DNA of 64,000 nt. Source: a virus. Positions 19,101-64,000 of this stretch are shown here, in pieces. The translations under genes were made by a program, and so were the position numbers. Each line of letters begins with the position of its first letter. Within the stretch, counting starts at the first letter, position 1. The DNA is taken from positions 8,588 through 72,587 of IMG/VR virus record IMGVR_UViG_3300035670_000150. One strand, 5' to 3'. The notes under the pieces are model-generated. The model was not told the DNA's origin. It was given only the letters and a program-made list of their open reading frames with translations, and made no database searches.

Positions 19101-22100
19101 TTAGCGTAAACCAATTCAGTTCCGTTACTGGTGGGGCTAAGTTTGCTAATGGTAAGAAGCAGGATGTACGTGACTTCACTATGGAAGAAGCGGCTAATGC
19201 CCAAGCCTCTTTAGAGACCCGTATCATTGAAACAGTGATGGACTCTACGGAACCTTTAACAGGAGATATTGACCAGACTTTAGCTAACTTAGAAGCTGTA
19301 TTACCTCCTGTTCAAGCAGAGACACCAAGTGTTGCCACGGTAGAGCCTAAGCTAGAAGCTATCATTGCAGGCCGTACTGAGTTCCCTCTTGCCGATATTC
19401 TGAATAATTTGAAAGACCTCACAGATATTCGTACTGCTAAAGCAATGCGGGAATTACTGAGTAATCTTCGTGGTTCGAATATTCAGGTAAGAATCTTAGG
19501 TGCCAATGAACAGAAAGTGATTGCTACTTCACTAGGCGAGATGAGCACAGAGTCCCTATACGGTTATTGGGAACCCAATGAAAAGGTCATCTACTTGCAA
19601 GGTACTCACTCCCCTAATTCAGGCGTGGCTATTGAAACACTTTTGCATGAGGCAATTCATGCGGCTTTGGATAGCAGACTAACCAGTATCGAAAAACAAC
19701 TCACTCAAGGTGTGAATGGAGGCCATACAGTTAAAGAGCTTAGTGCCTATAAGCACATTGAACAGATGCGAGCTAAGGCTAAAGAATTCTTAGATGCTGA
19801 CTCTACAGCCAACATTAAAGAGTTTATTGCATGGGGCTTATCCAATGCTAAAAACAGGGGTTTGTTAAGTAAACAACCAACCCGTATTAGGGCATTTGTT
19901 AAGGCTATCGTTACCCAATTGAAATTGATGCTCGGGCTGAAAACTCAAGATTCAAACATGCTTCTTGATTTACTTGCTGATGCCATGGTTATTGGTAAAG
20001 CAGGCACTGAGGTACGGAGTTCACTAGATAACACTATAGCAAGTTCTCCTCAAGTGGCTCATGATGCTACACGTTATATGGACTTAAACCAAATCTATGA
20101 CCATATTGCCAAAAGCAACACTAATACCATTACTGCAAGCCATGATGCCCATCTACGTGAGGTATTAAATAAGGCTGTTATCAAGGCCATTAACCCTACT
20201 CTGTTGGTTATCCCTGATAATGCTAAAACTTTATCTTCTCAGGATGCTGCTTTACTTCATGCATTAGACCCTGAAATTCGTAAAGACTTTGGTTTGTTGA
20301 CTGCTCTCAACTTCCGTGTAAGTGACCAAGAACTCATGGTCTATGCAACCTATAGCACTATCATTGGTTCAGCCTTAAATGACTTTGGTTGGAATACCCG
20401 TGAAATCCGTAGGATGTACGCCCATGCTAAGAAGAATCTAAGCTGGCGTGACTTTATTGGACAGGACAGTGTACTTGATACTGAGGCAGATAGAGCACGT
20501 TCTGAAAGTGAAGCTAGGGCAAGATACAATGCAGTATTTGCCAATACTCAGACTAATGATTATCTGCGTAACTTCATGGCCTTGGCTGCTACTAACGAAG
20601 CGTTCAGGGAAAGATTGGCTACTCTAACCACTCCACCAGCGGTAAGCAAAGCTATCAGAGGGGAAACTGTTAGAGACACTCTTAAAAATATTATTGAAGC
20701 TATCTTAAACTTTTTGAATGACTTAGCTATCACTCGTTCACATGAACCTACTGTGTTGGCTAAGTTAGACAAATTGGCTAAGAACATTCGTCACAGAGAA
20801 ATTAAAGAGAAGAATAAACTACAAAGTAAGATTATTAAATCTGCTAAGTTTGCTTCTAAAGTACTGAATACTGTGAATGAATTCAGTCGTATTAAGATTG
20901 ATAAAGCATTCGATAAAATGAAAAAGAAAGTGAGTAAACGCAGAATACTAAATGCTGCTGTAACTCTTTCTAGTGTGGTACTCAGTGAACGTAGAGCAAG
21001 TGAATTCGCTTTCGGTTTGGATACCATTCAGAACTTTATGACTACGGGTCGTGAGGGATTTGTATCTGCCTTATGGACAGACCTAAAAGGGACTGATGAT
21101 AGCAATATCCGTATTCATAGTTTGCTGGCAACGAAGAACAAGCTAATCGACCAAGAGACAGTGAACGTTAAAACCAATACTTCTGAATTGGTAAAATCCT
21201 TGTTTGGTAAAGAGCTTACTGATAAAGAAAGTGTAGCTGCTACTAAAGTACTGATAGCTCCTGACTTATCCAGCTTATTAACTAATGGCTATAGCTTTGC
21301 TCAAATTGCTAACTTCTTGAATAACCCTCTAGCTGTTAAAAATGAGGCGACTAGGCTGCAAGTGGCTATACGCCAACAGGCACCAAAAGGCACAGATGAG
21401 TATTTCATTAACCAAGCCAAGAACACTGCTCACATGATGATTAGAGGCTATCAGAAGTACCGAGGCCACGTTATGAGTAACGCTGCAACTATCGTTACTC
21501 TGTTCGGTACTGGTGAACCTAATCCCAATGCGAGTATGCAAGTTAGGACTATGGTAGATTCCTTGATTACTCTGGAAGCCTTGCAACTGGTTGACCCTGT
21601 GCAACTACAGATGATGAGCAATCTGTATAAGAGAGAGGCTGCTCGTAAAGGGGAAAACGGTGTTGAGTCCCTTTTGGCTATGCACAACGTAGTGAAAGAC
21701 AAAGTGCTTAAGAACACCTTCTTAGGTAATGAGTTCAACTATGTCAAAGGCCATACCACAGACATTACTGACCCTTACATGTCAATCCAGATTGCACCTA
21801 AGAGTATGGAAAATGAGCTGCTGATGCAGAACTATGAAAGGGTTGGGGAACCTCTCGTTAAGGATAAGCATGACCCAGTGGCAGAGCCAATGTATATGTA
21901 TGTGTCCAACTACGGGGGCGAAGCTACTTACCTGCAAGGAGCAATGTCTCTTGCAAGTAAAGGTGCTCGGGGTATGAGTGTGCTTGATGCTAATAACCAA
22001 GCAGGCAATGCCCTACCTATCTACAAACAGAAGGATTTGATTAACAAGATTCGTAGAGGCAAGGCCATTGATAACCAGAAGTTGTTCATGCCTAACCCTC

Positions 22101-23503
22101 CTTTGGCTGATAACGAATTAGTCCCTACCTTTGACAGCAAAGGACAAGTGATTGACTATCGTTATATTATGAAACAAGAAGTTAAGGATACTTTACTCAG
22201 AAGGGATAACAGGGTAGACCAAGTGTTTGGGGCTATGTCAGCGAGTGCTACCGTTAAGAAAAATACTGTAATAGTAAACTCAGCATTAATGAAAGCTCTC
22301 TATGACCAGTATAGCCATGACAGAAAGAACAATAATGTTAGGGGCTATTTGTTAGTTGAGCCTAATGCCAAGGATAAACAACTTGCTGAAATTTGGAATT
22401 TGATGCCACAAGAAGCTCAAAAAGAAGCTACTGCTTTATTTGGTAGAGAAGGCGTGTATGTCAGGAAGGATGTGATTAATGCAGCCTTTGGTTATCGTAA
22501 ATGGACTATAGCCAATCTTTGGAATCCAAATAATGATTATCCTGAAGTGGTCAAGAATGCCCTTAATCAGCTCATTACGAGCATTTATGGCAAAGCCCTA
22601 GCCAAGTTCCTTATGATGGGTGAAAGAGGGCTTCAGGAGATTGTTAAGGAGGCTAAAGACATTATCGTGATTAAATCGGTTGTGGTGCTTGCGAGTAACT
22701 TCATGTCTAACACAGTACAGTTGTTCCTGCTCCACGATGTGAACCCGATTAAAGCGGTGTCTGACCAGATAACAGCTATCACTGCTGCTCAGGAGTACAA
22801 CAAGAATGCTAAGGAGATATTCTTCTTGCAGGCTAAAGTAGATGCCAATATTGCAACCTCAGCTATGCGTTTGAAATTGCACCAATTGTTGCAAGACCAA
22901 GCAAGGAATCCAGTTAAAGGACTGATTGATGCAGGTATGCTACAAACGATTGTCGATGATGCCAGCGCCCAAGAAGACTTGTACTCGTTCAAGCATGGCT
23001 TAATTGGTAAGTTAGAGGAAGTGACTTCGGCCATTCCTGATGGGGTGAAAGAAGCCTTTAAGCAGGTTACTTTCCAACAGGGTTCTATAGCCTACGACTT
23101 TTTGAGAAGAGCTACGCAATTCTCGGACTTTGCTGCACGGTATGCATTGTATACCCACCAAGTAAATAATGAGGGAGTAAGCCACGACAAAGCCATTCAA
23201 AATATTATGGATGCTTTTGTTAACTACGACTTACCCCCACATAAAGCGATGCAGTACACAAATGATATGGGTATTACTTGGTTCTTTAAGTACTTCATAC
23301 GGATGCAGAAGGTTATTGTGAAGAGTTTCAGGAAGAATCCTGCCAAGGTATTAAGCTTATCTGTTGGGGCAGACATGTTAGGAATTAACATACCTACCCC
23401 GCTAGATGCTTTTGCTCCGTTCGTGGATGTGAATAGAAAGATTGGACTAATAGATGGTTTTAGCATGGCTGCTAATGCCCTTCCATTAGCCAAGGTGTTC
23501 TAA
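13199..23503 (+). CDS. Virion-encapsidated RNA polymerase (N4 gp50-like)
   Basis: 3434 aa with no Cys found; motif A ELDGVTNG, motif B RNFVKNPITTTVYASG, motif C NVFDA; HEAIH motif in the C-terminal region. Confidence 0.97.
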   Translation: MAKTPLDTAYDEILSPAEQKLAAAVEASNKDLAVIADIRKSYLDAQTARVRDRAESPNAVVSDTDLSTFTGQLTNLAISAGAKTVSVLGDVIQAPAKLWRENELASANITQEDIDNYWSLKNKQVQEAAGMNLLEDYTEAEKALTKPNIGKTRGVGTYMTTHDAPSKAQTLDAFFEGEKNAQVSRTYVYDAFSRYANDLKKNEVMADAKKTYEENKKDVVQGFEELRKGDLAGIGKMVSAADKMGADALVTLFTNPSGTAQLAAEAIPTAVMAAISAPLSAAAYGTSYIRDAEDMYRREYKKMPLGTDRAIMVSGSMLAGAVGTYADRLLGRAVVNSIGGNATKVAGEVAEDVAQGSLKEGAKKVTQELVDTALGIAATATKEGITEATEQAINEYSGKQDIDKMDGAEIFANGVAGFGAGGMLAGGATAVGKVNDFAKSAKASIVAKEATKTVLAADAKADEATSEQGVVNPEVRKGADLSSSLGIAKVIRNARTVLEKDETDQGTREDTILFAKHALSSIDNRLDATAEKLLDVEDMSKVEGISEDAKELLNSTKNELLKEQKRLQKIKDENAEKITAEYDALVSNPEVYEAAKSRLTAEKLDELADMDTQAVPLDEESDTTETDTTPTVDNTLDKDAALLAASSLVTDKVTPEDLEAAANSSKISPQRATQLKETAILNRLIDVAKSSAMVAKDIIEGGEGFVGIKQYQQRITEHLNSGSLRTAARDLTSLGKFAAHHEAKAKAYEAALVQAQNAPKGTRIEVAGFRTLPTKANPKGNPVTLDANAGKLVNSVRQEADLVKSAFTSLANQVTAFMPKQNTAKPETAPTETAPKAEAPKTEAPKAEPVVQETVNKTEPEAKPEEKTSEPETVSEPTASVQEQTVQEQVAEEQAVEEQVTEEQEDTSPNPITKSVNQGSRAGLKPKHLVNEADAQHLMTNPVTLFKRIKRGVLWAINYRDTNAVMEALNRELTPSESLLLDKLPVFMGGFEARLRSLLPSPETVLSKRGWQSVSAPLHAFTLEDGTFSKEFTEAMAISALEYLESNSLSLMGDNTTSIATLLGLDTKDFVPTREQYEALGNAGSPYADVAQKLGAIALKNMGMKKDSSKPQNIMNNMEYDLGRAIIGALNGTTRENGILTVTSYKISDLVALGGDYTIDPKNPHATIESIAFNPKVVASFLGVKDVSSIFGGTNGLLTTLTSNKAELPKAEIGTKTQKVSNFIRRSKGQKAPKEFVEGLQKDANVPNYLDLNMHTLFNELGKNWFAYMLGTRDASKAILGKRPSIEGKNKTAEVDITRYEMFLARMQETAGNLTAPFFYNYRIGKQLRASAIGSDINFQTSKFHRYMTAMEPSEIDMVNDTNQSFTLFKLGVAQGLGFGVDKKTIQASLAFYDSVLADPVFMNGVYAIKEILSGTPATDGHRQAILDAVEKGEEATHSLKSLTGLAEMLMATEGKFNTTVTLELDGVTNGVANAHIQMGLAMQNGKLTETSRIRLAQSGFFLDGTETYNEWINRAGNMDMYQSTAVAANVAEQVWIEDSANQDMLGTLATFKKYTGELVKETIEGDLAATSEGRNFVKNPITTTVYASGAKSRSDKMADKVMDNLLDAVEKAVLANDVQALNELKQDISTLAGMRIIFPRNMMEFEFNSFIAKGIKYSFSKSLGAIVNEAISNEYAKQLDNTALVTETSNVIFDMFNALYQTKIKEKLAELRSAGKLSTYAYLSEDQLDEIKNSLLHTMPVFNSFYGNISNGVMTAKYSGTSNVSNADKDVKAAFHLGSALGHRGSNYSYTDGYEAPAAGTMAILNIAFGDATTMARAAYKSDEPLGLNVFDARLTRIANVANTATALNESAYEAVTYHNLLGTVSKRLQEATKEFMQSGVSKTYSPEINALAHKVLVAHYSDGLSLINGKAHYKNSDGKPIALEDAEVAQSFTPDMLVRYIDNLNARMTAAHKQSQEAKQVLYKSLSVNQFSSVTGGAKFANGKKQDVRDFTMEEAANAQASLETRIIETVMDSTEPLTGDIDQTLANLEAVLPPVQAETPSVATVEPKLEAIIAGRTEFPLADILNNLKDLTDIRTAKAMRELLSNLRGSNIQVRILGANEQKVIATSLGEMSTESLYGYWEPNEKVIYLQGTHSPNSGVAIETLLHEAIHAALDSRLTSIEKQLTQGVNGGHTVKELSAYKHIEQMRAKAKEFLDADSTANIKEFIAWGLSNAKNRGLLSKQPTRIRAFVKAIVTQLKLMLGLKTQDSNMLLDLLADAMVIGKAGTEVRSSLDNTIASSPQVAHDATRYMDLNQIYDHIAKSNTNTITASHDAHLREVLNKAVIKAINPTLLVIPDNAKTLSSQDAALLHALDPEIRKDFGLLTALNFRVSDQELMVYATYSTIIGSALNDFGWNTREIRRMYAHAKKNLSWRDFIGQDSVLDTEADRARSESEARARYNAVFANTQTNDYLRNFMALAATNEAFRERLATLTTPPAVSKAIRGETVRDTLKNIIEAILNFLNDLAITRSHEPTVLAKLDKLAKNIRHREIKEKNKLQSKIIKSAKFASKVLNTVNEFSRIKIDKAFDKMKKKVSKRRILNAAVTLSSVVLSERRASEFAFGLDTIQNFMTTGREGFVSALWTDLKGTDDSNIRIHSLLATKNKLIDQETVNVKTNTSELVKSLFGKELTDKESVAATKVLIAPDLSSLLTNGYSFAQIANFLNNPLAVKNEATRLQVAIRQQAPKGTDEYFINQAKNTAHMMIRGYQKYRGHVMSNAATIVTLFGTGEPNPNASMQVRTMVDSLITLEALQLVDPVQLQMMSNLYKREAARKGENGVESLLAMHNVVKDKVLKNTFLGNEFNYVKGHTTDITDPYMSIQIAPKSMENELLMQNYERVGEPLVKDKHDPVAEPMYMYVSNYGGEATYLQGAMSLASKGARGMSVLDANNQAGNALPIYKQKDLINKIRRGKAIDNQKLFMPNPPLADNELVPTFDSKGQVIDYRYIMKQEVKDTLLRRDNRVDQVFGAMSASATVKKNTVIVNSALMKALYDQYSHDRKNNNVRGYLLVEPNAKDKQLAEIWNLMPQEAQKEATALFGREGVYVRKDVINAAFGYRKWTIANLWNPNNDYPEVVKNALNQLITSIYGKALAKFLMMGERGLQEIVKEAKDIIVIKSVVVLASNFMSNTVQLFLLHDVNPIKAVSDQITAITAAQEYNKNAKEIFFLQAKVDANIATSAMRLKLHQLLQDQARNPVKGLIDAGMLQTIVDDASAQEDLYSFKHGLIGKLEEVTSAIPDGVKEAFKQVTFQQGSIAYDFLRRATQFSDFAARYALYTHQVNNEGVSHDKAIQNIMDAFVNYDLPPHKAMQYTNDMGITWFFKYFIRMQKVIVKSFRKNPAKVLSLSVGADMLGINIPTPLDAFAPFVDVNRKIGLIDGFSMAANALPLAKVF

Positions 23504-54965: not shown

Positions 54966-54984
54966 ACCAAAAAGAAGCGAAGCG
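54966..54984 (-). promoter_or_regulatory. Candidate vRNAP early promoter 3
   Basis: Template (+) strand ACC-AAAAAGA-AGCGAAGCG, resembling N4 hairpin promoters. Confidence 0.75.
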
Positions 54985-55102
54985 CGAGGTATACATATAC
55001 TCGCTAAGCTGTTGCTATCTATTCGGTGATTGTTAGATGTGTTGCTATCTGATAGCTATTTTTCTTTGGCTCAGCAGCTCTTAAAAGAGAGCAGGAGACA
55101 CG

Positions 55103-55142
55103 AAAAAAGAATTCCTCACCACCCACAAGGGATGATGAGGAA
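55103..55142 (-). terminator. Terminator after the gp2-like gene
   Basis: TTCCTCA...TGAGGAA stem with a left A-tract. Confidence 0.7.
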
Positions 55143-55156
55143 CACTCGCTAAATGG

Positions 55157-55525
55157 TTAGATAGACCAACCAGTTGCATCAGGTTCATTGGAACCTTTGA
55201 CGAACAGGGTTAAGCGGACAGGACATTTGATTACCAAATCATCCTCAGTTACCGCAGCTTCTGCCTTATCCAGCAGAATTTCCATCAGCTTACGCTGATT
55301 TGCACCCATACCACGAATGTCCTCAGATACAGGACAATTCAATGGCATACGCACGAAGACATTAGGAGCAACCTCAAGCTCAACGTTCAGGTACACCTGA
55401 GTTTGAGATTGAGCACTTGCACCACCACCAGCAGCGTGCTGCTCCCAAATGTTAGCTCCTGCTACAGGAGTAGCAGAAGCAGCAGGAGCAGCAGCTTTTG
55501 AAGCACGCAGAATTTTTGTAGCCAT
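55157..55525 (-). CDS. N4 gp2-like ssDNA-binding middle-transcription activator
   Basis: QVYLNV..FVRMPLNCP..RGMGANQRKLMEILL resembles N4 gp2 as recalled (QFWLNI..FISLPTGIP..RAMRCAQNDLLEQLI); second early gene; GAGG RBS. Confidence 0.7.
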   Translation of the reverse strand: MATKILRASKAAAPAASATPVAGANIWEQHAAGGGASAQSQTQVYLNVELEVAPNVFVRMPLNCPVSEDIRGMGANQRKLMEILLDKAEAAVTEDDLVIKCPVRLTLFVKGSNEPDATGWSI

Positions 55526-55574
55526 GGTATACACCTCACTTGAATAGTTACGAGGTAATGACACCATTGTCATT

Positions 55575-55593
55575 ACCAATAATGAGCGAAGCG
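55575..55593 (-). promoter_or_regulatory. Candidate vRNAP early promoter 2
   Basis: ACC-AATAATG-AGCGAAGCG upstream of the gp2-like gene. Confidence 0.75.
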
Positions 55594-56147
55594 ATAGCTT
55601 TTAATTAGTGTCATAAAGACACTAAAGAAGAAGAGTATTGAGGAGTATCAGAGGATTGAGAGACATGCTTTTTACAATGCTCTTATTCATGCTCTTTACA
55701 TTAAGATTATATAAAGAGTACTGTAAGGATATACAGTATGTATATAAACAGTAGTAATTAAAGGAATTTTACTTAGGATTAGGGGAATTAAATACAGTGT
55801 TTTTAATATGTTTTATATGTATAGATTGTCAGTAATGTATAGGTGAACAGTATTGACAAAGAGGAATAGAGGAGTAAAGATAATAGAGATAATGATATTA
55901 GATAGATATGATAAATACAGTAAATATACACTTACTTCAATTACTTACTCTATATATACAGTGAGTAGAATATACATTAGTAATAAGCAATATATAAATA
56001 TATATCTAATACCTATTGACATAGATATGTATACTTATAAAGATAATAGATAGACTATACAAGATATATCTTATATAACTAAATAGTCTTAAGAGTATAT
56101 CAGACTATCATAATGTGTTATGTGTTTGTGTTTGTGTTAAGAGTTAA

Positions 56148-56171
56148 TAACCCTACCATTAGGTAGGGTTA
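56148..56171 (-). terminator. Terminator after the first early gene
   Basis: TAACCCTACC-ATTA-GGTAGGGTTA. Confidence 0.75.
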
Positions 56172-56178
56172 GAGTTAC

Positions 56179-56406
56179 TTAGATATTCCAAGTAGACTTC
56201 TCTTGTTCATACTTCTTATCGACCTTTTTATTGAGGTCTTCAAGACGTTTCTTAATCAGAAGGTCTTGTTCATCTACCATACCTTTAGTGAATTTCTCAC
56301 CAATGGTAGCTACGTTTTCTACTGATGCTAATGTTTTATCAATAGTACTGAATACACGTACTATTGAATTACATGCTGCATTCCATACACGAGAGATAGA
56401 AGACAT
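56179..56406 (-). CDS. First early gene, N4 gp1-like position (amphipathic helical protein)
   Basis: AAGGAG RBS; own promoter motif and terminator. Confidence 0.65.
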   Translation of the reverse strand: MSSISRVWNAACNSIVRVFSTIDKTLASVENVATIGEKFTKGMVDEQDLLIKKRLEDLNKKVDKKYEQEKSTWNI

Positions 56407-56454
56407 ATTGATTACTCCTTACTTAAAGTTAATGAATGATATACATAGGGGTAT

Positions 56455-56473
56455 ACCTAGAATAAGCGAAGCG
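56455..56473 (-). promoter_or_regulatory. Candidate vRNAP early promoter 1
   Basis: ACC-TAGAATA-AGCGAAGCG. Confidence 0.75.
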
Positions 56474-56596
56474 CATTAAGATAGGGGGGGAGTACTTAGT
56501 TAATTAGATACACTAAGGTAGGAGTACTACATTCATACTCCTAGACCATAATTTTGAAAACCCCGAATAAAAAAAAATATTAAATATTTCCATACT

Positions 56597-56632
56597 AAAA
56601 AAAAAAATAGCTCTATTATTTATAGAGCTATT
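56597..56632 (-). terminator. Rho-independent terminator after the Acb4-like gene
   Basis: AATAGCTCTAT-TATTT-ATAGAGCTATT with an A11 tract on the left. Confidence 0.85.
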
Positions 56633-56645
56633 CAGTAAATAATTA

Positions 56646-57080
56646 TTACTTGTTTAAATTTGCCTCATATAATTCCTGACATTTCATATACCCTTCCAAT
56701 GGCCATATCTTATTAACAGCATTTTCTAATGCTATTCTAGTGCCAATAGCTTTTCTACCATTCTCAACACTAACAGAGACAGAAGGTTCACCAGTAACAC
56801 CGAATCCATTAATCATATTGATTACAACTGTTCGTTGTACCTTACCTGTGAGAGTAACGTGAGTAACCATTTCAATGGTATCAATCTTATCCATGATGTG
56901 TTGAGGTAATACCCGTTTAGCATCATCGGTATTATGAGCCTTAATCATGGGTTCATACTCATTGAGGATGTACTCTACTAACTCTTTGGTTAGGTAGTCC
57001 ACTGAGCATGAATGAGCACGTATTGGTGTAGCCTGTGTATCGACTTGCTTAGTTACTTGCTTAGTTACTTGTTCAGTCAT
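56646..57080 (-). CDS. Phage_gp49_66-family (Acb4-like) cyclic nucleotide sponge candidate
   Basis: NGFGVTGE.S.SVS.EN....IG..IA.ENAVNKIWPLEGY family signature; ATG at 57080 with AAGGA RBS. Confidence 0.78.
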   Translation of the reverse strand: MTEQVTKQVTKQVDTQATPIRAHSCSVDYLTKELVEYILNEYEPMIKAHNTDDAKRVLPQHIMDKIDTIEMVTHVTLTGKVQRTVVINMINGFGVTGEPSVSVSVENGRKAIGTRIALENAVNKIWPLEGYMKCQELYEANLNK

Positions 57081-57254
57081 AAATAAATCCTTTCTTTGGT
57101 TACTTACTTTGGTTATGGGAATTTTCTTAAAACGCATAGGAACGATTTTAAGAAGAGTTCTCTACATAGCCTATACGATGGCATAGGGATAATAGAGAAC
57201 TCTCATCTATGGATTGATTTGAGGGCTTCTTGCTATTATTCAGTGCTATTCTAC

Positions 57255-57833
57255 TTACTTATTCTCCATCCTAGCACGTACAAAACAGTCTTTAGCTTCG
57301 AGTAGTTTGCGCAACCCAGCCGATTTTTCAGCACAGTTAGGCAGTGACTCATCCAGCATACTTGCTATTTCAGATAGCGGTTTGCTAACTTCTTTTAGGG
57401 CATCTGGTAGATGGGCGTAAGTGAAATATTTGAGTATGTCACTTTTACTTTGTTGGTGTTTCCCGCTAGGCACAGGCTCATAAGTCTTTTCAAATATATC
57501 AGGCTTGCAAGGGTAGTGTTCACCGTTAACCCCTGTGATAATCCAGTCAGCAGGACAGACTATATGGCCGCCTTCCAAAGTATCAATCCAACCATGCTCA
57601 TGCATAGTTAAGCCACAATGCTTACAGGTGGATTCCCCTGATACTTCAGGGGTTCTAAAGTATCTAACAATATCCCCTTCCCACCCGTTGGCTTTACGCT
57701 CTTCCACAGTGCATACGCGCAGCTTTCCACCCTCAAATCCATCGTGTGACTTACTGTAGTCAAGGGGATGGTCTCCGTTCTTAAACCATTGAGTAGCTTC
57801 AATGATGACGGGCTTTTTCTTAAACTTAGTCAT
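57255..57833 (-). CDS. Two-domain fusion: KKPVxIEA/YPCKPDIF domain plus Acb2/Tad1-like helical hairpin
   Basis: N-terminal KKPVIIEATQW...TLEG...DWII.GV.GE.YPCKPDIFEKTYE; C-terminal YFTYAHLP..L..VSKP...EKSAGLRKLLEAKDCFVRA. Confidence 0.7.
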   Translation of the reverse strand: MTKFKKKPVIIEATQWFKNGDHPLDYSKSHDGFEGGKLRVCTVEERKANGWEGDIVRYFRTPEVSGESTCKHCGLTMHEHGWIDTLEGGHIVCPADWIITGVNGEHYPCKPDIFEKTYEPVPSGKHQQSKSDILKYFTYAHLPDALKEVSKPLSEIASMLDESLPNCAEKSAGLRKLLEAKDCFVRARMENK

Positions 57834-57973
57834 TAAATTTTCCTTACTGTCTAGTTGAGAGATTCAATTTTATTGAATGTACTTTGTCGTTGGTTCAATG
57901 TACCATAAGGGCTCACCCTGCCGAAAAATACATACTAAATATAGGCTTAAGTAAATATTTAATATGGATTCTT

Positions 57974-58009
57974 AAAAAAAGAACCCTTAGAGTCCCTATT
58001 CTCTAAGGG
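57974..58009 (-). terminator. Terminator-like hairpin in the divergent intergenic region
   Basis: CCCTTAGAG-N8-CTCTAAGGG with a left A-tract. Confidence 0.6.
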
Positions 58010-58120
58010 CTAAAACCCACCTTATCATCGGAGTAGTAAAGCAAGATAGGTTGTATTCTACTTTGTTTTAGTTACTATACTCATCCTATAGCAGAAATTT
58101 CAAAAAGAAAAGGTAAGAGT

Positions 58121-58837
58121 ATGTCTAAAGTAGCCAAAAAGATGGTCATTGAAGAGATTGAAGTAAGGAAAGCTATCCCTAGAGAGCTACAGGCTAGGGT
58201 TACTCCTGAGTTTATGGAGAAACTTAATAAGGCTGTAGCTGACCCACATACAGCAGAGATGATGCGGGATAATATCTTTGGTTATTTAAGTGTCCTTTCT
58301 GAGGGTAAATTTAAGTTAGAAGGGTACATTGATGCTGTAAGGTATGTTAGTTATAAGTCCATGGGTGATAGTAATATCAGGGCTTATGTAAAAACCTTCC
58401 CTGAGAAGTATAATAACTTCGTTAATAGTGGTGTAACTGAAAAAGATATTGCCACTTACGTATCTGCTTATAATAAATCCAAGTTAGTAAACTTAATTTA
58501 TGAGCAGTCTTTGGTTCCTGTTTGGTTAATCAATGCGGAGAATTATCAGAAGGCTATTAATGTTCAAGTATCCTTAATGATGGATACCAGTATTAGTCCT
58601 AAAGTTCGTAGTGATGCAGCTAATAGTTTATTAACGCATCTTAAAAGACCTGAAGCAGCTAAAGTTCAACTTAGTGTTGAAGTTAAAGAGTCTGATGCTA
58701 TGCGTGAATTAAGGGAATTAACTTCTCAATTTGCACAGCAACAACATCAAAGTATTCTTGATGGTAATGGTAATGCTAAAGCAGTAGCAGAACAGAAAAT
58801 TATTCAGGCTGAATACGAAGAAATTACCGAGGAATAA
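58121..58837 (+). CDS. N4 gp69-like protein (putative small terminase)
   Basis: VLSEGKFKL..YI.AV.YVSYK.MG and SPKVRSDAANSLLTHLK motifs; upstream of TerL. Confidence 0.82.
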   Translation: MSKVAKKMVIEEIEVRKAIPRELQARVTPEFMEKLNKAVADPHTAEMMRDNIFGYLSVLSEGKFKLEGYIDAVRYVSYKSMGDSNIRAYVKTFPEKYNNFVNSGVTEKDIATYVSAYNKSKLVNLIYEQSLVPVWLINAENYQKAINVQVSLMMDTSISPKVRSDAANSLLTHLKRPEAAKVQLSVEVKESDAMRELRELTSQFAQQQHQSILDGNGNAKAVAEQKIIQAEYEEITEE

Positions 58838-58840
58838 AGA

Positions 58841-60508
58841 ATGCATAACGTTCTTGCTGTTAAAGAGATTCCTGAGGAGGTAATTCCTCAAATAAACACC
58901 CCCTCAGTGGAGGAGGATGATAGTGTTAACAAGTCGTTAGAGAAGTTGCTCAAGGAGGTAGATTACCATTTCTTGAATAACCTCTATGTGCCTAGCGTTA
59001 ATGCCATCAAATTCATTAACTTCATCAAGTTAGTCAATGGTTCTAAGGGGGAAGAGAACAAATCCCCTGTAATTCATATGCACATGATTGACCAAGCCAT
59101 TGCCAACTCTGATAACCTCTTTGTGAGCTTCAGGGGTAGTGCTAAAACCACTGCATTACATGAGTATGTTTACCTTTATATTGCTGTTTATGGTGAGTTT
59201 TTCGATTTTGGTGTAGTGGATGTAGCAATGTACATCTCCGATACCATGGAAAACGGTGTAAAGAACATGAGGAATAACTTGGAGTTCCGTTATAACAACT
59301 CTGAGTTCCTCAGAAAGTACATACCCTATACAAGATTTACTGATTCCCGTTGGGAATTCAAAAATATTGACGGTAAGAGCTTCTGTATCAGGGGCTTTGG
59401 TGCCAATACAGGTGTACGGGGATTCAAAGAGTATGGTAAGCGTCCTACTTTCTGTGGTTTTGACGACTTGATGTCGGATAAAAACGCTGAATCTCCCACC
59501 ATTATCAAAGACATACGTAACATTATCTATAAAGCTGCCCGTCAAGCGATGCATCCGAGGAAACGGAAAATCATTTGGACTGGTACACCTTTCAACAAGA
59601 AAGACCCACTGTATAAAGCAGCAGGTAGTCCATCATGGCACACCTCTGTTTACCCTATCTGTGAGAAATTCCCTTGTTCAAGGGAGGAATTTAGGGGTGC
59701 ATGGGAAGACCGTTTCAATTATGACTTCGTGAAAAACGAGTATGAAACGCTATTGGACAACGGTGAGATAGGGGCATTTAACCAAGAGCTTATGCTCCGT
59801 ATTTCTTCTGAGGAAAACCGTATTGTACAGGATGGTGATATTCGTTGGTTCTCCCGAGCAGCACTTATCCGCAATCTCTCTAACTTCAACGTGTATATCG
59901 TGACAGACTTCGCAGTATCTGAGAAAGAGAGTGCCGACTTTAGTACTATTGGGGTATTTGCCTATAACCATATTGGGCAGTGGTTCTTGATTGATGGGAT
60001 ATGCAAAAGGCAGACCATGGATAAGAATATCAATGACCTATTCCAGCTCTGTCAAATGTACTCGCCCAAGTCAGTTGGGGTAGAAGTGACAGGGCAACAA
60101 GGAGGCTTCATCTCATGGATACAACGTGAGATGGTGGAGAGGAACATCTTTTTTAACTTGGCTTCAGACAGCAATGGTGGTTCTGCGGGTATCCGTTATA
60201 CCTCAAACAAGTTTCATCGGTTCTCCGCTACTGCTGTGCCTTGGTTCAAGTTGGGACTTATCTACCTGCCCGAGGAATACAAAAAAGACCCGTTGGTTAG
60301 GGAAATGGTTGATGAATTGTCTTCGGCCACCACCGAAGGTTTTAAGTCTGAACATGATGACGCCTGCGACTTGATTACCATGCTGACAGTAATGAATGCA
60401 TGGAAGCCTAGTCCTTCTCAAACCCAAAGCTATAACCCTGATATTGGTTGGGTGCTAGGGAATGATGAAGAGGAAACAGGCGGAGGATTAGAGTCTTACT
60501 TAGTGTAA
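58841..60508 (+). CDS. terL: Terminase large subunit (N4 gp68-like)
   Basis: FRGSAKTT Walker A, FDDL Walker B, GTP coupling motif, TDFA and HDD nuclease motifs. Confidence 0.95.
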   Translation: MHNVLAVKEIPEEVIPQINTPSVEEDDSVNKSLEKLLKEVDYHFLNNLYVPSVNAIKFINFIKLVNGSKGEENKSPVIHMHMIDQAIANSDNLFVSFRGSAKTTALHEYVYLYIAVYGEFFDFGVVDVAMYISDTMENGVKNMRNNLEFRYNNSEFLRKYIPYTRFTDSRWEFKNIDGKSFCIRGFGANTGVRGFKEYGKRPTFCGFDDLMSDKNAESPTIIKDIRNIIYKAARQAMHPRKRKIIWTGTPFNKKDPLYKAAGSPSWHTSVYPICEKFPCSREEFRGAWEDRFNYDFVKNEYETLLDNGEIGAFNQELMLRISSEENRIVQDGDIRWFSRAALIRNLSNFNVYIVTDFAVSEKESADFSTIGVFAYNHIGQWFLIDGICKRQTMDKNINDLFQLCQMYSPKSVGVEVTGQQGGFISWIQREMVERNIFFNLASDSNGGSAGIRYTSNKFHRFSATAVPWFKLGLIYLPEEYKKDPLVREMVDELSSATTEGFKSEHDDACDLITMLTVMNAWKPSPSQTQSYNPDIGWVLGNDEEETGGGLESYLV

Positions 60509-61282: not shown

Positions 61283-64000
61283 TGAGAACAGTCAAACCTA
61301 AAGGCAAAGCTATTGATATTAATAAGTATATCAACACAGGATACGATAAAGTTGTCCTTGTGGCTGATAATATGGAGATGCTCAAAAAGCTCACCCTTAT
61401 TTTAGATGATAACGGATTCAAAAACGTAGTAGCCCATTTAAACGATATTGTTGTAGTTGCCAATTCGATTACTAACGTGGTTACCGTTTCAGGTATTGCT
61501 GATGACGTGGTAGTGGTTGCTAACAACGTCAGTGATGTTGTGGTGGTATCTCATAACATCGAAGATATTAAGTTAGTTGCTGAGCATATTCAGGCAGTGC
61601 AACGAGTAGCTGATTCAGCAAACAATGTAGATAGGCTGGCCTTGTCTGCTAATGCTTTGGATATTGTAGCTACCTCCGTGGTTTCAGTGGATAAGGTAGC
61701 TGCTTCCATTGATGCAGTAGAGTCCGTGAGTTCTATCCTTAGCTCCGTGGTTCGTGTAAGTGCCAGTGCAGATAACGTCGATATTGTGGCTAACGATATT
61801 GATGCTATTAAGGCTGTGCCTACGTACATGACTGAGATTCGTCAAGCAGTCACCACTACTACAACCAATGCACAAACATCGACTACGAATGCTGCTTCTG
61901 CCTTGGCAAGTAAAGAGGCTGCGAGTGCTAGTGAGATTGCTGCAAATGCTTCTAAGGTAGCGAGTAAAGCTTCTCAAGATGCGGCCAAAATGAGTGAGCT
62001 TGCTGCTTACTCTTCTGAGCTGAGTTCTTTGGCTAATGCCGAAGCTTCTGAAGCGAGCAAGACTGCTGCAAAAGCTGCTGAAACAAATGCTATTGCTAAC
62101 TCCACATCTTCTTATAACTACTCTGAATTAGCCCGTGGTTATGCCAATGCTGCCGAAGTATCCAAAGGCGAAAGTATTCAGGCTGCGGCTGATTCTTCAA
62201 CTTCAGCCAGTGCCAGCTTATCCAGTGCCAATGCCGCCAAGGTAAGTGAGAATGCTGCCAAGGCTTCACAGATTGCTAGTAAGGCAAGTGAGACTGCGGC
62301 CAAAGCAAGCGAAACTGCAAGTAAGGCAAGTGAGGTTGCAGCAAAAACCAGTGAGAATACTGCTATTGCTAAAGCTACGCAAACTGCTGCGGATGCTGTG
62401 AAGACTGGCAATGATGTTGTGCAATCTGCTGCTAATGCTTCATTGGCTGAAGCGGCTAAAAATGAAAGTCAAGCTATTGCTGCTGCCCTTACTGGCGGTA
62501 TTGTGGATAAAGGTGCTTGGGATGCATCCACAGGCGTTTTCCCTGCTAAACCTACCAGACCTTTACCTGAAGGCGGTACTGCTCTTGTATCTGCGTTCTG
62601 GAAGGTTACAGTGGCAGGTACAGCGGGAGGTATTAGCTTCTTGGTAGGAGACGATTTACGTTTCTCTGCTAGCACAGATAGCTTCTACAAGGTGGATAAC
62701 ACCGATGCAGTAGCCAGTGTCCAAGGGAAGACAGGAGCTGTTACCCTGAGTGCAAGTGAGGTAGGGGCATTGGCTGCTCCTACAGGCACCTTTGCCATTA
62801 ACAAGGTGATAGTGGCAGGCAGTGCTGCGGGGACTTCTCAATATAGTCCATACACCATTGATAAGAGTGTGCCTTCCAATGCGGTCTTTACTGATACGGT
62901 GTATACCCACCCAACGACAGATGGAAACTTGCACGTTCCAGCTACAGGCACAACCAGTAATGGTAAAGCTTTGGTTGCAGGAGCTACTGCGGGAAGTGCT
63001 GCATGGAGAGCATTGGTTACTTCTGACATTGGCGGCTTGGCTGCTGCATTAGATGCAAAACTAGATGCCACGGCTAATGCTGTTTCTGCTACTAAATTGC
63101 AGAATACCGTAACCATTAATGGAGTGGCTTTCGATGGTAGTGCAAATATCACTGTTACTGCTGCAAGTCCTTTCACTCTTACCCGAGGAACAGGTTTAAC
63201 AGGGGCTAACTATAACGGAGCTGCTGCAACCACTTGGGCAGTGGCCTACGGTACTGCTGCTGGAACTGCGTGTCAGGGTAATGATGCAAGGCTAAGTGAT
63301 GCCCGTACTCCTCTGGCTCATGCCCATACCATAGCAGATACTACGGGATTGCAGTCAGCTTTAGATGCTAAGTATAGTGCCACCAACAAACCAACCCCTG
63401 CGGATATTGGGGCACAACCAGCGGGCAGTTACTCACCCGAGTCCCATATCCACAGTACTGCTACTACTGGTGCTAACGGTTTCATGAGTAGTGCAGATAA
63501 AACCAAGTTAGATAATATTGCAGCCAATGCTAACAACTACTCTCTACCTGCTGCTACTTCTGCGGTAAGGGGGGGTATTGAGATTTTCTCAGATACCGTA
63601 CAGACAGTGGCTGCTAACGCTGTTAGTGCTACTGCGGGTAAAACGTATGGGGTGCAAGTGAATGCTGCTGGACAGGCAGTAGTCAACGTGCCTTGGTCAG
63701 ACACAAATACTGTCTACACCCACCCTGCATCAGGGGTAACTGTGGGCACTTACTCCGTGGTTACAGTAGATGCTAACGGGCATGTTACAAACGGCAGTAA
63801 TCCCACTACACTGGCAGGTTACGGTATTACAGATGCTGCTCCGTCTTCTCACGTTGGAAGTACAGGAGCTGCTCATGGTGTAGCAACAACTGCGGTCAAC
63901 GGTTTTATGTCTGCTGCGGATAAAACTAAACTAGATAGTGTTGCTTCAGGGGCTAATAATTACACCTTACCTACTGCAACTTCGAGTGCTATTGGTGGGG
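61282..64000 (+). CDS. Long tail fibre protein, 3'-truncated (absent from the ORF track)
   Basis: TAATG coupling to gp67; no stop in the stretches I translated: MRTVKPKG..INKYINTGYDKVVLVADN, 10-aa VxxVA repeats, Ala/Ser coiled coil, KGAWDAS domain, GFMSxADKTKLD and PTTLAGYGITDA fibre repeats. Confidence 0.88.
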   Translation, partial: MRTVKPKGKAIDINKYINTGYDKVVLVADNMEMLKKLTLILDDNGFKNVVAHLNDIVVVANSITNVVTVSGIADDVVVVANNVSDVVVVSHNIEDIKLVAEHIQAVQRVADSANNVDRLALSANALDIVATSVVSVDKVAASIDAVESVSSILSSVVRVSASADNVDIVANDIDAIKAVPTYMTEIRQAVTTTTTNAQTSTTNAASALASKEAASASEIAANASKVASKASQDAAKMSELAAYSSELSSLANAEASEASKTAAKAAETNAIANSTSSYNYSELARGYANAAEVSKGESIQAAADSSTSASASLSSANAAKVSENAAKASQIASKASETAAKASETASKASEVAAKTSENTAIAKATQTAADAVKTGNDVVQSAANASLAEAAKNESQAIAAALTGGIVDKGAWDASTGVFPAKPTRPLPEGGTALVSAFWKVTVAGTAGGISFLVGDDLRFSASTDSFYKVDNTDAVASVQGKTGAVTLSASEVGALAAPTGTFAINKVIVAGSAAGTSQYSPYTIDKSVPSNAVFTDTVYTHPTTDGNLHVPATGTTSNGKALVAGATAGSAAWRALVTSDIGGLAAALDAKLDATANAVSATKLQNTVTINGVAFDGSANITVTAASPFTLTRGTGLTGANYNGAAATTWAVAYGTAAGTACQGNDARLSDARTPLAHAHTIADTTGLQSALDAKYSATNKPTPADIGAQPAGSYSPESHIHSTATTGANGFMSSADKTKLDNIAANANNYSLPAATSAVRGGIEIFSDTVQTVAANAVSATAGKTYGVQVNAAGQAVVNVPWSDTNTVYTHPASGVTVGTYSVVTVDANGHVTNGSNPTTLAGYGITDAAPSSHVGSTGAAHGVATTAVNGFMSAADKTKLDSVASGANNYTLPTATSSAIGG

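What the first reader, a model, noticed from the sequence alone, without database searches (positions are those of the whole stretch)
56646..57833. Candidate multi-signal 'sponge' anti-defence cassette beside the predicted genome end
Seen in the sequence: two - strand genes form an isolated unit bounded by hairpins at 57974-58009 and 56597-56632, divergent from the terminase operon. Established: Phage_gp49_66-family proteins (Acb4) and Acb2/Tad1 hairpin proteins sequester CBASS/Thoeris signalling nucleotides. Inference: the two genes carry three small domains that together may neutralise several immune second messengers. If the terminus is at ~56.5 kb these are the last genes of the virion DNA, which would fit action against late-triggered defences.
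Basis: partly seen in the sequence, partly recalled or inferred. Interest (0 to 1): 0.85.

Follow-up and report, generated by a model that had tools for sequence, protein, structure and literature searches.

The report
Anti-defence gene pair at phage end
A small two-gene unit at the probable end of an N4-like phage genome holds one recognisable sponge for bacterial alarm molecules and a second protein made of two very widespread but unstudied phage modules that keep company with such sponges.

Summary
Two minus-strand genes (57833-57255, 192 aa; 57080/57137-56646, 144/163 aa) lie between two intrinsic-terminator hairpins and diverge from the gp69-like/terminase operon of an N4-like phage.

ORF2 is a true PF13876 (Acb4-family) protein: 45.8 bits against a cut-off of 27. 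Its best solved relative is SPO1 Acb4 (9E4W). It has an extra N-terminal extension of about 55 aa, and 4 of 9 side-chain ligand contacts are kept.

ORF1 fuses two modules that mostly occur as separate proteins:
- **N-dom** is a 121-aa beta domain with a CxxC..H..C site. It is PGDYG-like, matches 14,805 clusters, and has no solved fold match.
- **C-dom** is a 63-aa module of one short helix plus a helical hairpin.

C-dom could not be shown to belong to the Acb2/Tad1 hairpin family. The Pfam model does not hit it and profile comparisons are null. Only weak leads point that way.

Both modules are tied to known sponges. N-dom recurs fused to Tad2, Acb4 and Sequestin. C-dom genes sit next to Tad2, Sequestin or Acb4 genes in 6 of 136 neighbour ORFs. 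The exact N-dom+C-dom fusion and the pairing with Acb4 are rare.

A genome end near 56.5-56.6 kb is supported by N4 synteny, three early-promoter-like mini-hairpins and contig breaks in three assemblies.

Verdict: one known sponge plus one plausible but unproven anti-defence fusion.

The parts
57982..58011 (-). Upstream intrinsic terminator-like hairpin (11-bp stem, 8-nt loop, T-run) that insulates the cassette from minus-strand read-through
   Evidence: RNA fold -16.2 kcal/mol, z -2.89
57255..57833 (-). ORF1, 192 aa: fusion of N-dom (residues 1-125) and C-dom (residues 126-192). AAGGA lies 9 nt before the ATG
57459..57833 (-). N-dom: PGDYG-like beta domain. Invariant residues are D21 H22 D25 E52 G53 C73 H80 G81 C93; C70 is nearly invariant. 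Elsewhere it is mostly a stand-alone protein of about 121 aa
   Evidence: (pLDDT 94.1)
57258..57458 (-). C-dom: short helix plus two long antiparallel helices, with a nearly invariant AEKSAGLRKLLEAKDCFVRA stretch. Elsewhere it is mostly a stand-alone protein of 62-66 aa
   Evidence: (pLDDT 94.6)
56646..57137 (-). ORF2: Acb4-family (PF13876) protein. The likely start is Met20 at 57080 (144 aa). The PF13876 domain spans residues 79-152 of the 163-aa frame. The N-terminal extension holds a 12-nt tandem duplication at 57043-57066
56605..56633 (-). Downstream intrinsic terminator (12-bp stem, 5-nt loop, 11 T) that ends the two-gene unit
   Evidence: RNA fold -13.9 kcal/mol, z -4.25
56524..56597 (.). 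Interval in which contigs of three independent assemblies end or begin: the candidate physical genome end
   Evidence: table 8 (X3 records 2 and 4; X5 record 11; X6 records 19 and 20)
56466..56473 (+). First of three GCGAAGCG mini-hairpin motifs (the others are at 55586 and 54977), each just upstream of a minus-strand gene: candidate N4-type early promoters
   Evidence: (D2)

Best explanation
The unit is an accessory counter-defence cassette at the right end of an N4-like (Schitoviridae-type) phage genome. It occupies the position that gp70-72 hold in N4 itself.

ORF2 is an Acb4-family sponge. By analogy with SPO1 Acb4 it should form a tetramer whose inter-subunit pockets sequester CBASS cyclic dinucleotides such as 3'3'-cGAMP. 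Because about half of the SPO1 contact residues differ, and there is an extra N-terminal extension, its ligand range may differ.

ORF1 joins two small modules that are self-sufficient proteins in thousands of other phages. One is a PGDYG-like beta domain with a probable zinc site and a conserved NGDHPxD/WEG patch. The other is a three-helix hairpin with a very conserved basic second helix. Both modules recur fused to, or next to, known sponge genes. ORF1 therefore most likely also binds or destroys a host immune signal, with an unknown ligand.

Shown here: the gene structure, the terminators, Acb4 family membership, the module architecture, and the fusion and neighbourhood statistics. Inferred: oligomer state, ligand binding, anti-defence activity, timing of expression, and the exact genome end.
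For: ORF2:
- PF13876 at E 9e-12, 45.8 bits against a cut-off of 27. The six-frame genome search gives 46.8 bits and a single copy.
- A profile of ORF2 and its relatives hits 9E4W (Acb4) first in the PDB, at E 0.0086.
- PF13876 equals Acb4, and all 8 tested homologues bound 3'3'-cGAMP.
- Contact residues K36, F48, V56 and I66 of SPO1 Acb4 align to K99, F112, V120 and I131.

N-dom:
- 5917 relatives in the 90% clusters. Among the 120 listed, 4 carry Tad2 (PF11195), 1 carries PF13876 and 1 carries PF21825.
- 14,805 representative clusters at E <= 1e-3.
- Among 56 extensions of 45 aa or more, the only recurrent groups are Tad2 (5), Acb4 (2) and one unknown pair; 47 are singletons.
- Fusion to Tad2/Acb4 is the criterion by which Sequestin was found.

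C-dom:
- 2483 relatives.
- Of 136 immediate-neighbour ORFs, 3 are Tad2-like, 2 are PF21825 and 1 is PF13876. In one survey three sponge families made up about 0.06% of 32 million phage proteins.
- Atlas neighbours carry PF24729 in 18%, 51% and 12% of members.
- Predicted topology is a short helix plus two long antiparallel helices, at pLDDT 94.6.

Position:
- N4 has gp70-72 diverging from gp69/gp68 in the last 1.1 kb of its genome.
- Contig breaks fall at 56524-56597.
- Contigs run unbroken from the cassette into the terminase operon.
Against: - No assay exists for any of the three domains.
- The PF24729 model does not hit C-dom. hhalign against Vs.4/Acb2 gives probabilities of 0.2% and 0.5%. 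A C-dom profile finds no Acb2 or Tad1 chain in the PDB at E <= 10.
- N-dom has no solved structural relative: Foldseek's best E is 0.8 and VIA's best Z is 2.5. Its nearest named kin are 'PGDYG' proteins of unknown function.
- Immediate neighbours of stand-alone N-dom genes are mostly replication, recombination and nucleotide-metabolism genes. Only 2 of 135 are sponge-family ORFs.
- In the less biased set of 62 long representatives, only 1 Tad2 fusion and 1 Acb4 fusion were seen (after removing the ones I added on purpose).
- The combination is not conserved. The N-dom+C-dom fusion occurs in only 3 of 392 fetched proteins. No N-dom locus of 80 carries C-dom within 4 kb. Of 23 Acb4 loci, 1 has an N-dom-like ORF nearby and none has C-dom.
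- Five of 9 SPO1 Acb4 side-chain contacts differ in ORF2: E49 to G, Y57 to S, F62 to G, T70 to I, K81 to P.
- Both ORF1 modules are 60-80% identical across phages of different phyla. That is unlike the 'high sequence divergence' reported for sponges.
Confidence: 0.55

Rival explanations
1. Only ORF2 is a counter-defence protein. ORF1 is an unrelated accessory protein. N-dom would be a PGDYG/Dec-like OB-type module of phage DNA or nucleotide metabolism, or a protein-binding adaptor. C-dom would be a generic oligomerising hairpin or a binder of a conserved host protein. Their fusions to sponges would reflect the general shuffling of small accessory modules.
For: - Neighbours of N-dom genes are mainly RusA, HNH, RecT, DnaB, DNA polymerase A, VRR-NUC, thymidylate synthase and GTP cyclohydrolase I.
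- N-dom is also fused to MazG, PRA-PH, cyclophilin, Sel1 and DUF551, and to a QueE-like protein in BFVD.
- 47 of 56 extensions are singletons.
- C-dom is also fused to unrelated N-terminal modules in Erwinia and Vibrio phages. It often sits beside lysis genes: Rz 5 times and Peptidase_M15 3 times.
- Conservation across phyla is very high.
- N-dom's top, weak, structural hit is the phage L decoration protein.
Against: - The only recurrent fusion partners found are sponge families.
- Sponge-family ORFs are 6 of 136 C-dom neighbours, far above their share of phage proteins.
- In this phage ORF1 shares a terminator-bounded unit with an Acb4 gene.
Confidence: 0.3
2. The unit is a moron-like insert of no defined role. 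The PF13876 protein acts through its dsRBD-like fold on RNA rather than as a nucleotide sponge.
For: - The Acb4 fold resembles dsRNA-binding domains.
- About half of the ligand contacts are not kept in ORF2.
- A 13-nt inverted repeat that occurs nowhere else in the genome flanks the cassette.
- The ORF2 N-terminal region is swapped for 215 other letters in a related contig (table 5).
Against: - All 8 diverse PF13876 proteins tested in print bound 3'3'-cGAMP.
- The Lys and the stacking Phe are kept.
Confidence: 0.08
3. The physical genome end is not at about 56.5 kb, so the cassette is not 'last in'. It could be an early unit if the end lay between ORF1 and the terminase operon.
For: - IMG/VR classes the record as linear without end repeats.
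- The contig is a wrap-around assembly: its last 126 nt are repeated at contig positions 16-141.
- A 12-A homopolymer and low-complexity DNA at 56.58-56.60 kb could by themselves break assemblies.
Against: - Contigs of X3, X5 and X7 run unbroken across 57.1-58.4 kb (table 8).
- A 21-kb contig of a relative ends 19 nt beyond 56597.
- The N4 layout matches.
- The three early-promoter-like hairpins all lie downstream of 56.5 kb.
Confidence: 0.2

Closest known systems
Acb4 (anti-CBASS 4, Bacillus phage SPO1; Pfam PF13876 Phage_gp49_66; PDB 9E4W)
   Same: ORF2 residues 79-152 match the family model over threshold. A profile of ORF2 and its relatives finds 9E4W as the best PDB hit. K36, F48, V56 and I66 equivalents are kept.
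   Different: ORF2 has about 55 extra N-terminal residues, which vary between relatives. Equivalents of E49, Y57, F62, T70 and K81 are G, S, G, I and P. The gene lies at the genome end rather than next to the virion RNA polymerase gene, where the numbering of N4 gp49 would place it (the position of N4 gp49 is inferred from its number and was not fetched).
Acb2 (T4 Vs.4) and Tad1 helical hairpin, Pfam PF24729
   Same: The predicted topology of C-dom is a short helix plus two long antiparallel helices. That this matches the Acb2 protomer is recalled, not taken from a call. C-dom is also small, phage-restricted and stand-alone. Atlas neighbours partly carry PF24729. C-dom genes neighbour other sponge genes.
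   Different: There is no significant HMM or profile-profile match. C-dom is shorter (62-66 aa against 88 aa for Vs.4). It is far more conserved in sequence.
Sponge fusion proteins (Acb4-Tad2 of Pasteurella phage Pm86; Tad2/Acb4-Sequestin fusions)
   Same: Several small modules are joined in one polypeptide or one operon. N-dom itself occurs fused to Tad2, Acb4 and Sequestin.
   Different: Here the two fused modules are both uncharacterised, and the known sponge is a separate gene.
PGDYG proteins (PF14083) and the phage L decoration protein Dec (PDB 6E3C)
   Same: The C-terminal part of N-dom (VCPGDWIITG..GE.YPCKPDIF) gives a sub-threshold PGDYG hit. Of 80 longer relatives, 13 hit PGDYG. BFVD structural matches include 'PGDYG protein' entries. 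The top VIA hit is 6E3C at Z 2.5. A 2025 preprint removed sponge homologues carrying an extra 'PDB 6E3C' domain.
   Different: N-dom has an N-terminal KKPVxIEAxQW..NGDHPxD part and a Cys/His insertion. hhalign against Dec gives a probability of 0.3%. No function is known for PGDYG proteins.
N4 gp70-gp72 right-end genes
   Same: A short unit diverges from gp69/terminase and points at the right genome end.
   Different: There is no sequence relation to ORF1 or ORF2.

Membership tests
Acb4 / PF13876 | Match to the Pfam model above the gathering score | tested here: met
   45.8 bits against 27; 46.8 bits in the six-frame genome search
Acb4 / PF13876 | Sequence relation to the solved founder (9E4W) | tested here: met
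   The A7 profile gives 9E4W as the top PDB hit: E 0.0086, 19.1 bits, chain residues 30-86. The single sequence found nothing
Acb4 / PF13876 | Ligand-contact residues of SPO1 Acb4 (K36, F48, E49, V56, Y57, F62, I66, T70, K81) | tested here: inconclusive
   4 of 9 are kept (K99, F112, V120, I131) and 5 are changed (G113, S121, G127, I135, P146). The alignment was read, with a chain numbering offset of +1
Acb4 / PF13876 | Alpha-beta-beta-beta-alpha core and homotetramer | not tested
Acb4 / PF13876 | Binds 3'3'-cGAMP and rescues phage on CBASS | not testable with these tools
   Needs EMSA or ITC and plaque assays
Acb2/Tad1 hairpin / PF24729 | Match to the Pfam model above the gathering score | tested here: not met
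   No hit on ORF1 or C-dom at E <= 1 or 10. No hit in the genome at E <= 10. The positive control T4 Vs.4 scores 71.4 bits. The best relative scores 22.7 bits, below 27
Acb2/Tad1 hairpin / PF24729 | Profile-profile relation to Acb2 (Vs.4) sequences | tested here: not met
   hhalign probability 0.2% and 0.5%, E 0.11. Both profiles are shallow (Neff 1.8-2.5), so power is low
Acb2/Tad1 hairpin / PF24729 | Fold: short helix plus two long antiparallel helices, superposable on Acb2/Tad1 | tested here: inconclusive
   The topology is present in the model. Foldseek gives no hit at E <= 1e-3. VIA gives 213 chains at Z >= 5, with a best Z of 7.4 to a designed protein
Acb2/Tad1 hairpin / PF24729 | Hexamer with nucleotide pockets | not tested
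PGDYG / PF14083 | Match to the Pfam model above the gathering score | tested here: not met
   15 bits against 27; 15.8 bits. Of 80 longer relatives, 13 reach E <= 1e-3
Tad1 (beta domain plus hairpin) | N-terminal beta domain like that of solved Tad1 | tested here: inconclusive
   N-dom has no PDB match by Foldseek (best E 0.8) or VIA (best Z 2.5)
Intrinsic (Rho-independent) terminator | Stable stem-loop directly followed by a U-run on the transcribed strand | tested here: met
N4-like right-end accessory unit | Short unit diverging from gp69/terminase next to the genome terminus | tested here: met
   Layout. N4 comparison. Contig ends. The terminus itself is not mapped

The most novel reading that the evidence does not exclude
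The 121-aa PGDYG-like zinc domain of ORF1 is a new and very large family of phage antagonists of nucleotide immune signalling, acting either as a sponge or as a small nuclease. It would have been missed so far because it has no Pfam model and no solved fold. The 63-aa hairpin would be a compact, highly conserved branch of the Acb2/Tad1 type. Together with the Acb4 gene, this terminal cassette would then disarm three different signal classes.
Probability: 0.3. Interest if true: 0.85.

Novelty: new variant of a known kind. Interest (0 to 1): 0.62.

Why it matters
Seven sponge families were counted as characterised in an October 2026 review. New ones were found precisely by looking at what is fused to Tad2 and Acb4.

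The N-terminal module of ORF1 is fused to Tad2, Acb4 and Sequestin. It is present in more than 14,000 sequence clusters and in over a thousand isolated phages, including phages of Mycobacterium, Staphylococcus, Acinetobacter and Vibrio. I found no paper on it.

If it acts on immune signals, it would be one of the commonest counter-defence modules, and it would be directly testable with existing CBASS, Thoeris and Pycsar strains.

The cassette's place at the last-injected end of an N4-like genome also raises the question of when such genes need to be expressed.

Tried and rejected
- **Single-sequence PDB searches.** Neither ORF gave a relevant hit.
- **Nucleotide search.** Megablast of 55000-59000 against isolated phages gave no match.
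- **Fold searches for N-dom.** Foldseek against the PDB gave no hit at E <= 1e-3. VIA-wide gave 7 chains at Z >= 2, with a best of 2.5.
- **Fold searches for C-dom.** Foldseek gave no hit at E <= 1e-3. VIA-wide gave only generic helical matches, with neither Acb2 nor Tad1 among the 50 rows shown. This absence proves nothing for such a small hairpin.
- **C-dom profile searches.** The profile against PDB sequences found no Acb2 or Tad1 chain at E <= 10. hhalign against T4 Vs.4 alone and against 6 Vs.4 relatives gave nothing.
- **N-dom profile searches.** The profile against PDB sequences gave nothing at E < 0.69. hhalign against phage L Dec gave a probability of 0.3%.
- **Other libraries.** NCBIfam gave nothing. 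N4 gp70-72 have no Pfam hit and no relation to N-dom or C-dom.
- **Complex prediction.** Four copies of N-dom with zinc returned no verdict (score 0.00, controls not run). This is neither support nor evidence against oligomerisation.
- **A whole-ORF1 alignment (A2).** It misplaced the stand-alone C-dom sequences, so I folded the two modules separately.
- **The search for related loci with ORF2 alone.** It found no relative. With alignment A7 it gave 23 distant Acb4 loci, none clearly of the same phage lineage.
- **Relatives by terminase.** Vibrio phage 1.238.A and Alteromonas phage PT11-V19 show other small genes at the equivalent place. I did not analyse these further.
- **Depth gaps in laid contigs.** X5 has no cover over 55.5-56.3 kb, and X7 has gaps. 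These are not used as evidence.
- **Expression.** The RNA-library contig X7 covers ORF1, but DNA can be present in such libraries, so expression is not claimed.
- **Literature.** Searches for PF14083/PGDYG and for the PHROG ids returned no paper. PF24729 returned one paper, which only notes Tad1-like genes in mycobacteriophages.
- **Supplements.** I did not open supplementary tables. Table S3 of the Acb4 preprint, Tables S2 and S4 of the structural-modelling preprint and Table S1 of the sponge-diversity preprint may already list relatives of these modules. In particular, the 9141 'Acb2 homologs' found there by HHpred may include the C-dom family.
- **Limits of the counts.** The neighbour counts are on 135 and 136 ORFs, called by my own simple ORF picker. 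I dropped about 20 obviously duplicate loci by eye, so some redundancy remains. The tool reports tallies only, not which loci hold the matches.
Full report
**What is there**

The window is 64 kb of a 72,587-bp single-contig virus record. CheckV estimates it as 98% complete. It encodes a 3434-aa virion-RNA-polymerase-sized ORF (13199-23503, +). Its terminase has N4-like phages of Alteromonas, Vibrio, Acinetobacter and enterobacteria as nearest relatives, at 52-68% identity. The contig is a wrap-around assembly. Its last gene runs off the end, and its last 126 nt recur at contig positions 16-141. The record's ends are therefore arbitrary.

At 56.6-58.0 kb two minus-strand genes diverge from the plus-strand operon that starts with a gp69-like gene (58121) and the terminase (58841). 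ORF1 is 57833-57255 (192 aa). ORF2 is 57137-56646 (163 aa). Its relatives start at the second Met (57080, 144 aa), which has an AAGGA 8 nt upstream.

They are intrinsic terminators for the minus strand:
- 58011-57982 has an 11-bp stem, folds at -16.2 kcal/mol with z -2.89, and is followed by a T-run.
- 56633-56605 has a 12-bp stem, folds at -13.9 kcal/mol with z -4.25, and is followed by eleven T.

The number of terminator-like sites in the region (4) is not above shuffles (2.2 +/- 1.5). It is the placement and stability of these two that count. No terminator-like site lies between the two genes.

**ORF2**

Residues 79-152 match PF13876 (Phage_gp49_66) at E 9e-12 and 45.8 bits, against a cut-off of 27. 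It is the only such gene in the genome. PF13876 is the family that Chang et al. (bioRxiv 10.1101/2024.12.30.630793) named Acb4. I read passages and sections 7 and 8. SPO1 Acb4 is a 96-aa tetramer that sequesters four 3'3'-cGAMP molecules. All eight homologues they tested bound 3'3'-cGAMP. Those from phages of Gram-negative hosts also bound 3'3'-cAA.

A profile of ORF2 with its six relatives finds the Acb4 crystal chain 9E4W as the best PDB hit (E 0.0086). The single sequence found nothing. I read that alignment against the contacts listed in the paper. K36, F48, V56 and I66 correspond to K99, F112, V120 and I131. E49, Y57, F62, T70 and K81 correspond to G, S, G, I and P. ORF2 is therefore a family member, but its ligand range cannot be read off.

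ORF2 carries about 55 extra N-terminal residues. These include a 12-nt tandem duplication (D15) that a wastewater relative lacks. A third relative has 215 different letters in place of 56926-57135. The preprint notes that several Acb4 proteins have such extensions. ORF2 has only six close relatives in 5.8 billion proteins. Three of them sit on contigs of 69-72 kb.

**ORF1, N-terminal module (N-dom)**

N-dom is residues 1-125. It is overwhelmingly a stand-alone protein of 120-125 aa elsewhere:
- 5917 relatives in the 90% clusters, many at 70-80% identity.
- 14,805 representative clusters at E <= 1e-3, and 2509 at E <= 1e-10.
- tblastn with whole ORF1 hit 1083 isolated-phage records across actinobacterial, firmicute and proteobacterial hosts. 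Of these, 372 also match C-dom alone.

An alignment of 58 sequences shows invariant A13, D21, H22, D25, E52, G53, C73, H80, G81 and C93. C70 and the VCPGDW motif are nearly invariant. This suggests a CxxC..H..C metal site plus an acidic/His patch.

The AlphaFold2 model is confident (pLDDT 94.1). It has no solved relative: Foldseek's best E is 0.8 and VIA's best Z is 2.5. In BFVD it matches 32 viral proteins at E <= 1e-3, all uncharacterised or labelled 'PGDYG protein'. The Pfam PGDYG model itself is sub-threshold (15 bits).

Fusions tie N-dom to counter-defence:
- Among the 120 best relatives, 4 carry Tad2 (PF11195), 1 carries PF13876 and 1 carries PF21825 (Sequestin).
- Among 56 extensions of 45 aa or more in all fetched N-dom proteins, the only recurrent groups are Tad2 (5), Acb4 (2) and one unknown pair.

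Fusion to Tad2/Acb4 is how Tal et al. (bioRxiv 10.1101/2025.07.12.664507) discovered Sequestin. I read passages and sections 7 and 8. They queried Pfam families only, which N-dom is not.

The signal is weaker in the less selected set of 62 long representatives. That set holds one Tad2 and one Acb4 fusion, beside MazG, PRA-PH, cyclophilin, Sel1, DUF551 and WDGH (I had deliberately added seven known fusions to that scan). Immediate neighbours of 72 or so stand-alone N-dom genes are mostly replication, recombination and nucleotide-metabolism genes. Among 135 ORFs there is one PF13876 and one PF24729 neighbour.

One further lead exists. A Sorek-laboratory preprint (10.1101/2025.08.24.671296; Methods passage) removed sponge homologues that carried an extra domain assigned to 'PDB 6E3C', the phage L decoration protein. 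6E3C is also N-dom's top, though weak, VIA hit. My hhalign of N-dom against Dec is not significant (0.3%), although it aligns the GDWII..GE.Y..K..FE..Y stretch.

**ORF1, C-terminal module (C-dom)**

C-dom is residues 126-192. It is also mostly a stand-alone protein, of 62-66 aa. It has 2483 relatives and none has a Pfam domain on record. The stretch AEKSAGLRKLLEAKDCFVRA is almost invariant. It occurs in 372 isolated phages, including other N4-like roseophages.

The model (pLDDT 94.6) is a short helix followed by two long antiparallel helices.

Tests of that label gave mixed results.

For the label:
- The ESM-Atlas nearest clusters (score 0.94, 216-224 shared features) carry PF24729 in 18%, 51% and 12% of members.
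- 9 of 39 relatives give sub-threshold PF24729 hits, the best at E 0.039.
- A Brevibacterium phage relative with an internal duplication reaches 22.7 bits against a cut-off of 27.

Against the label:
- The model does not hit the query or the genome at E <= 10. It scores T4 Vs.4 at 71.4 bits.
- hhalign gives 0.2% and 0.5%.
- The family profile finds no Acb2 or Tad1 chain in the PDB.
- Fold searches cannot discriminate such a small hairpin.

Membership is therefore unproven. The resemblance is real at the level of size, topology and lifestyle.

The best functional evidence is context. Of 136 ORFs immediately flanking stand-alone C-dom genes, 3 are Tad2-like, 2 are Sequestin (PF21825) and 1 is Acb4. 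In one survey three sponge families together made up about 0.06% of 32 million phage proteins. Lysis genes are equally common neighbours: Rz 5 times and Peptidase_M15 3 times. C-dom is also fused to unrelated N-terminal modules in Erwinia and Vibrio phages.

**Is it a conserved cassette?**

No.
- The N-dom+C-dom fusion was seen in 3 of 392 fetched proteins. One of these is 97% identical to ORF1.
- None of 80 N-dom loci has C-dom within 4 kb. Three of 80 C-dom loci have an N-dom-like ORF.
- Of 23 Acb4 loci, one has an N-dom-like ORF and none has C-dom.
- The genome has no Tad2 or Sequestin gene.

This phage has assembled its own combination from widely circulating parts.

**Genome end**

N4 itself has gp70-72 diverging from gp69/gp68 in the last 1.1 kb of its linear genome. 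ORF1 and ORF2 occupy the same position, without sequence relation to gp70-72.

Just beyond the ORF2 terminator lie the only three copies in the genome of GCGAAGCG, a GCG-AAG-CGC mini-hairpin. They sit at 56466, 55586 and 54977, each upstream of a minus-strand gene. That N4 early promoters are small hairpins read by the injected polymerase is recalled, not checked here.

In laid contigs, three assemblies break inside 56524-56597:
- X3 ends at 56524 and restarts at 56535.
- A 21-kb contig of a relative in X5 ends 19 nt past 56597.
- X6 ends at 56555 and restarts at 56597.

Contigs run unbroken from the cassette into the terminase operon. A homopolymer there could also break assemblies, and no read starts were available. 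The end at about 56.5-56.6 kb is therefore well supported but not mapped. If it is right, the unit is the last DNA to enter the cell. Its promoter and timing are unknown.

**Verdict**

The most interesting element is that N-terminal module. It is very widespread, strongly conserved, confidently folded and without a solved relative. It recurs fused to three sponge families. My searches found no paper on it; supplements were not seen.

The one complex prediction gave no verdict.

Noticed in passing
window 54977-54984, 55586-55593, 56466-56473 (+): GCGAAGCG (a GCG-AAG-CGC mini-hairpin) occurs only three times in the 72.6-kb genome. All three are in one orientation, each just upstream of a minus-strand gene, and they share ACC..A.AA..AGCGAAGCG context. 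They are candidate N4-type early promoters.
   Followed up: partly
window 55580-56178: An AT-rich stretch of about 600 nt has no ORF of 90 aa or more. It holds TATA-like and GTGTTT repeats and varies by insertions and deletions between assemblies: X6 skips 86 and 37 nt and inserts 15 nt at 56119.
   Followed up: no
window 57043-57066: An exact 12-nt tandem duplication encodes TKQV twice in the N-terminal tail of ORF2. One copy is missing in a wastewater relative (table 4; also P0241).
   Followed up: partly
window 57953-57965 (+) and 56577-56589 (-): The 13-mer AAATATTTAATAT occurs only at these two places in the genome, as an inverted repeat flanking the cassette just inside the upstream terminator and just outside the downstream one. 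By my own rough estimate a chance match has a probability of about 0.04 (I1, 87).
   Followed up: partly
window 58074-58103 (-): A sigma70-like site (TTGAAA, 18 nt, TATAGT; 10 of 12 matches) lies directly upstream of the terminator at 58011-57982. This could give a short leader or small RNA ahead of ORF1. It is only a consensus match.
   Followed up: no
window 57477-57516: The DNA encoding the N-dom core (YPCKPDIF region) is matched at 85-95% identity by many otherwise unrelated contigs in three metagenomes. This shows unusual conservation at the nucleotide level (tables 7 and 8).
   Followed up: no
protein P0247: A 3743-aa protein holds 28 separate stretches matching residues 83-121 of N-dom. 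It is a giant repeat protein built from the PGDYG-like half.
   Followed up: no
contig ends (window 63875-64000 and contig positions 16-141): The last 126 nt of the record are repeated near its start. The last gene also reads through the junction. The 'linear' record is therefore a wrap-around assembly cut inside a tail gene.
   Followed up: yes
L014:2507-2935 and L015:2459-2881: C-dom is fused to other small N-terminal modules. In Erwinia jumbo phages the partner is a GxxGSGKS-containing piece. In a Vibrio phage it is a GYLVEY..ISWSPK..FE..Y module.
   Followed up: no
window 55157-55579 (-) and 56179-56406 (-): The first two genes downstream of the putative end (about 122-140 aa and 75 aa) have no hit in Pfam, PHROGs or NCBIfam.
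   Followed up: no
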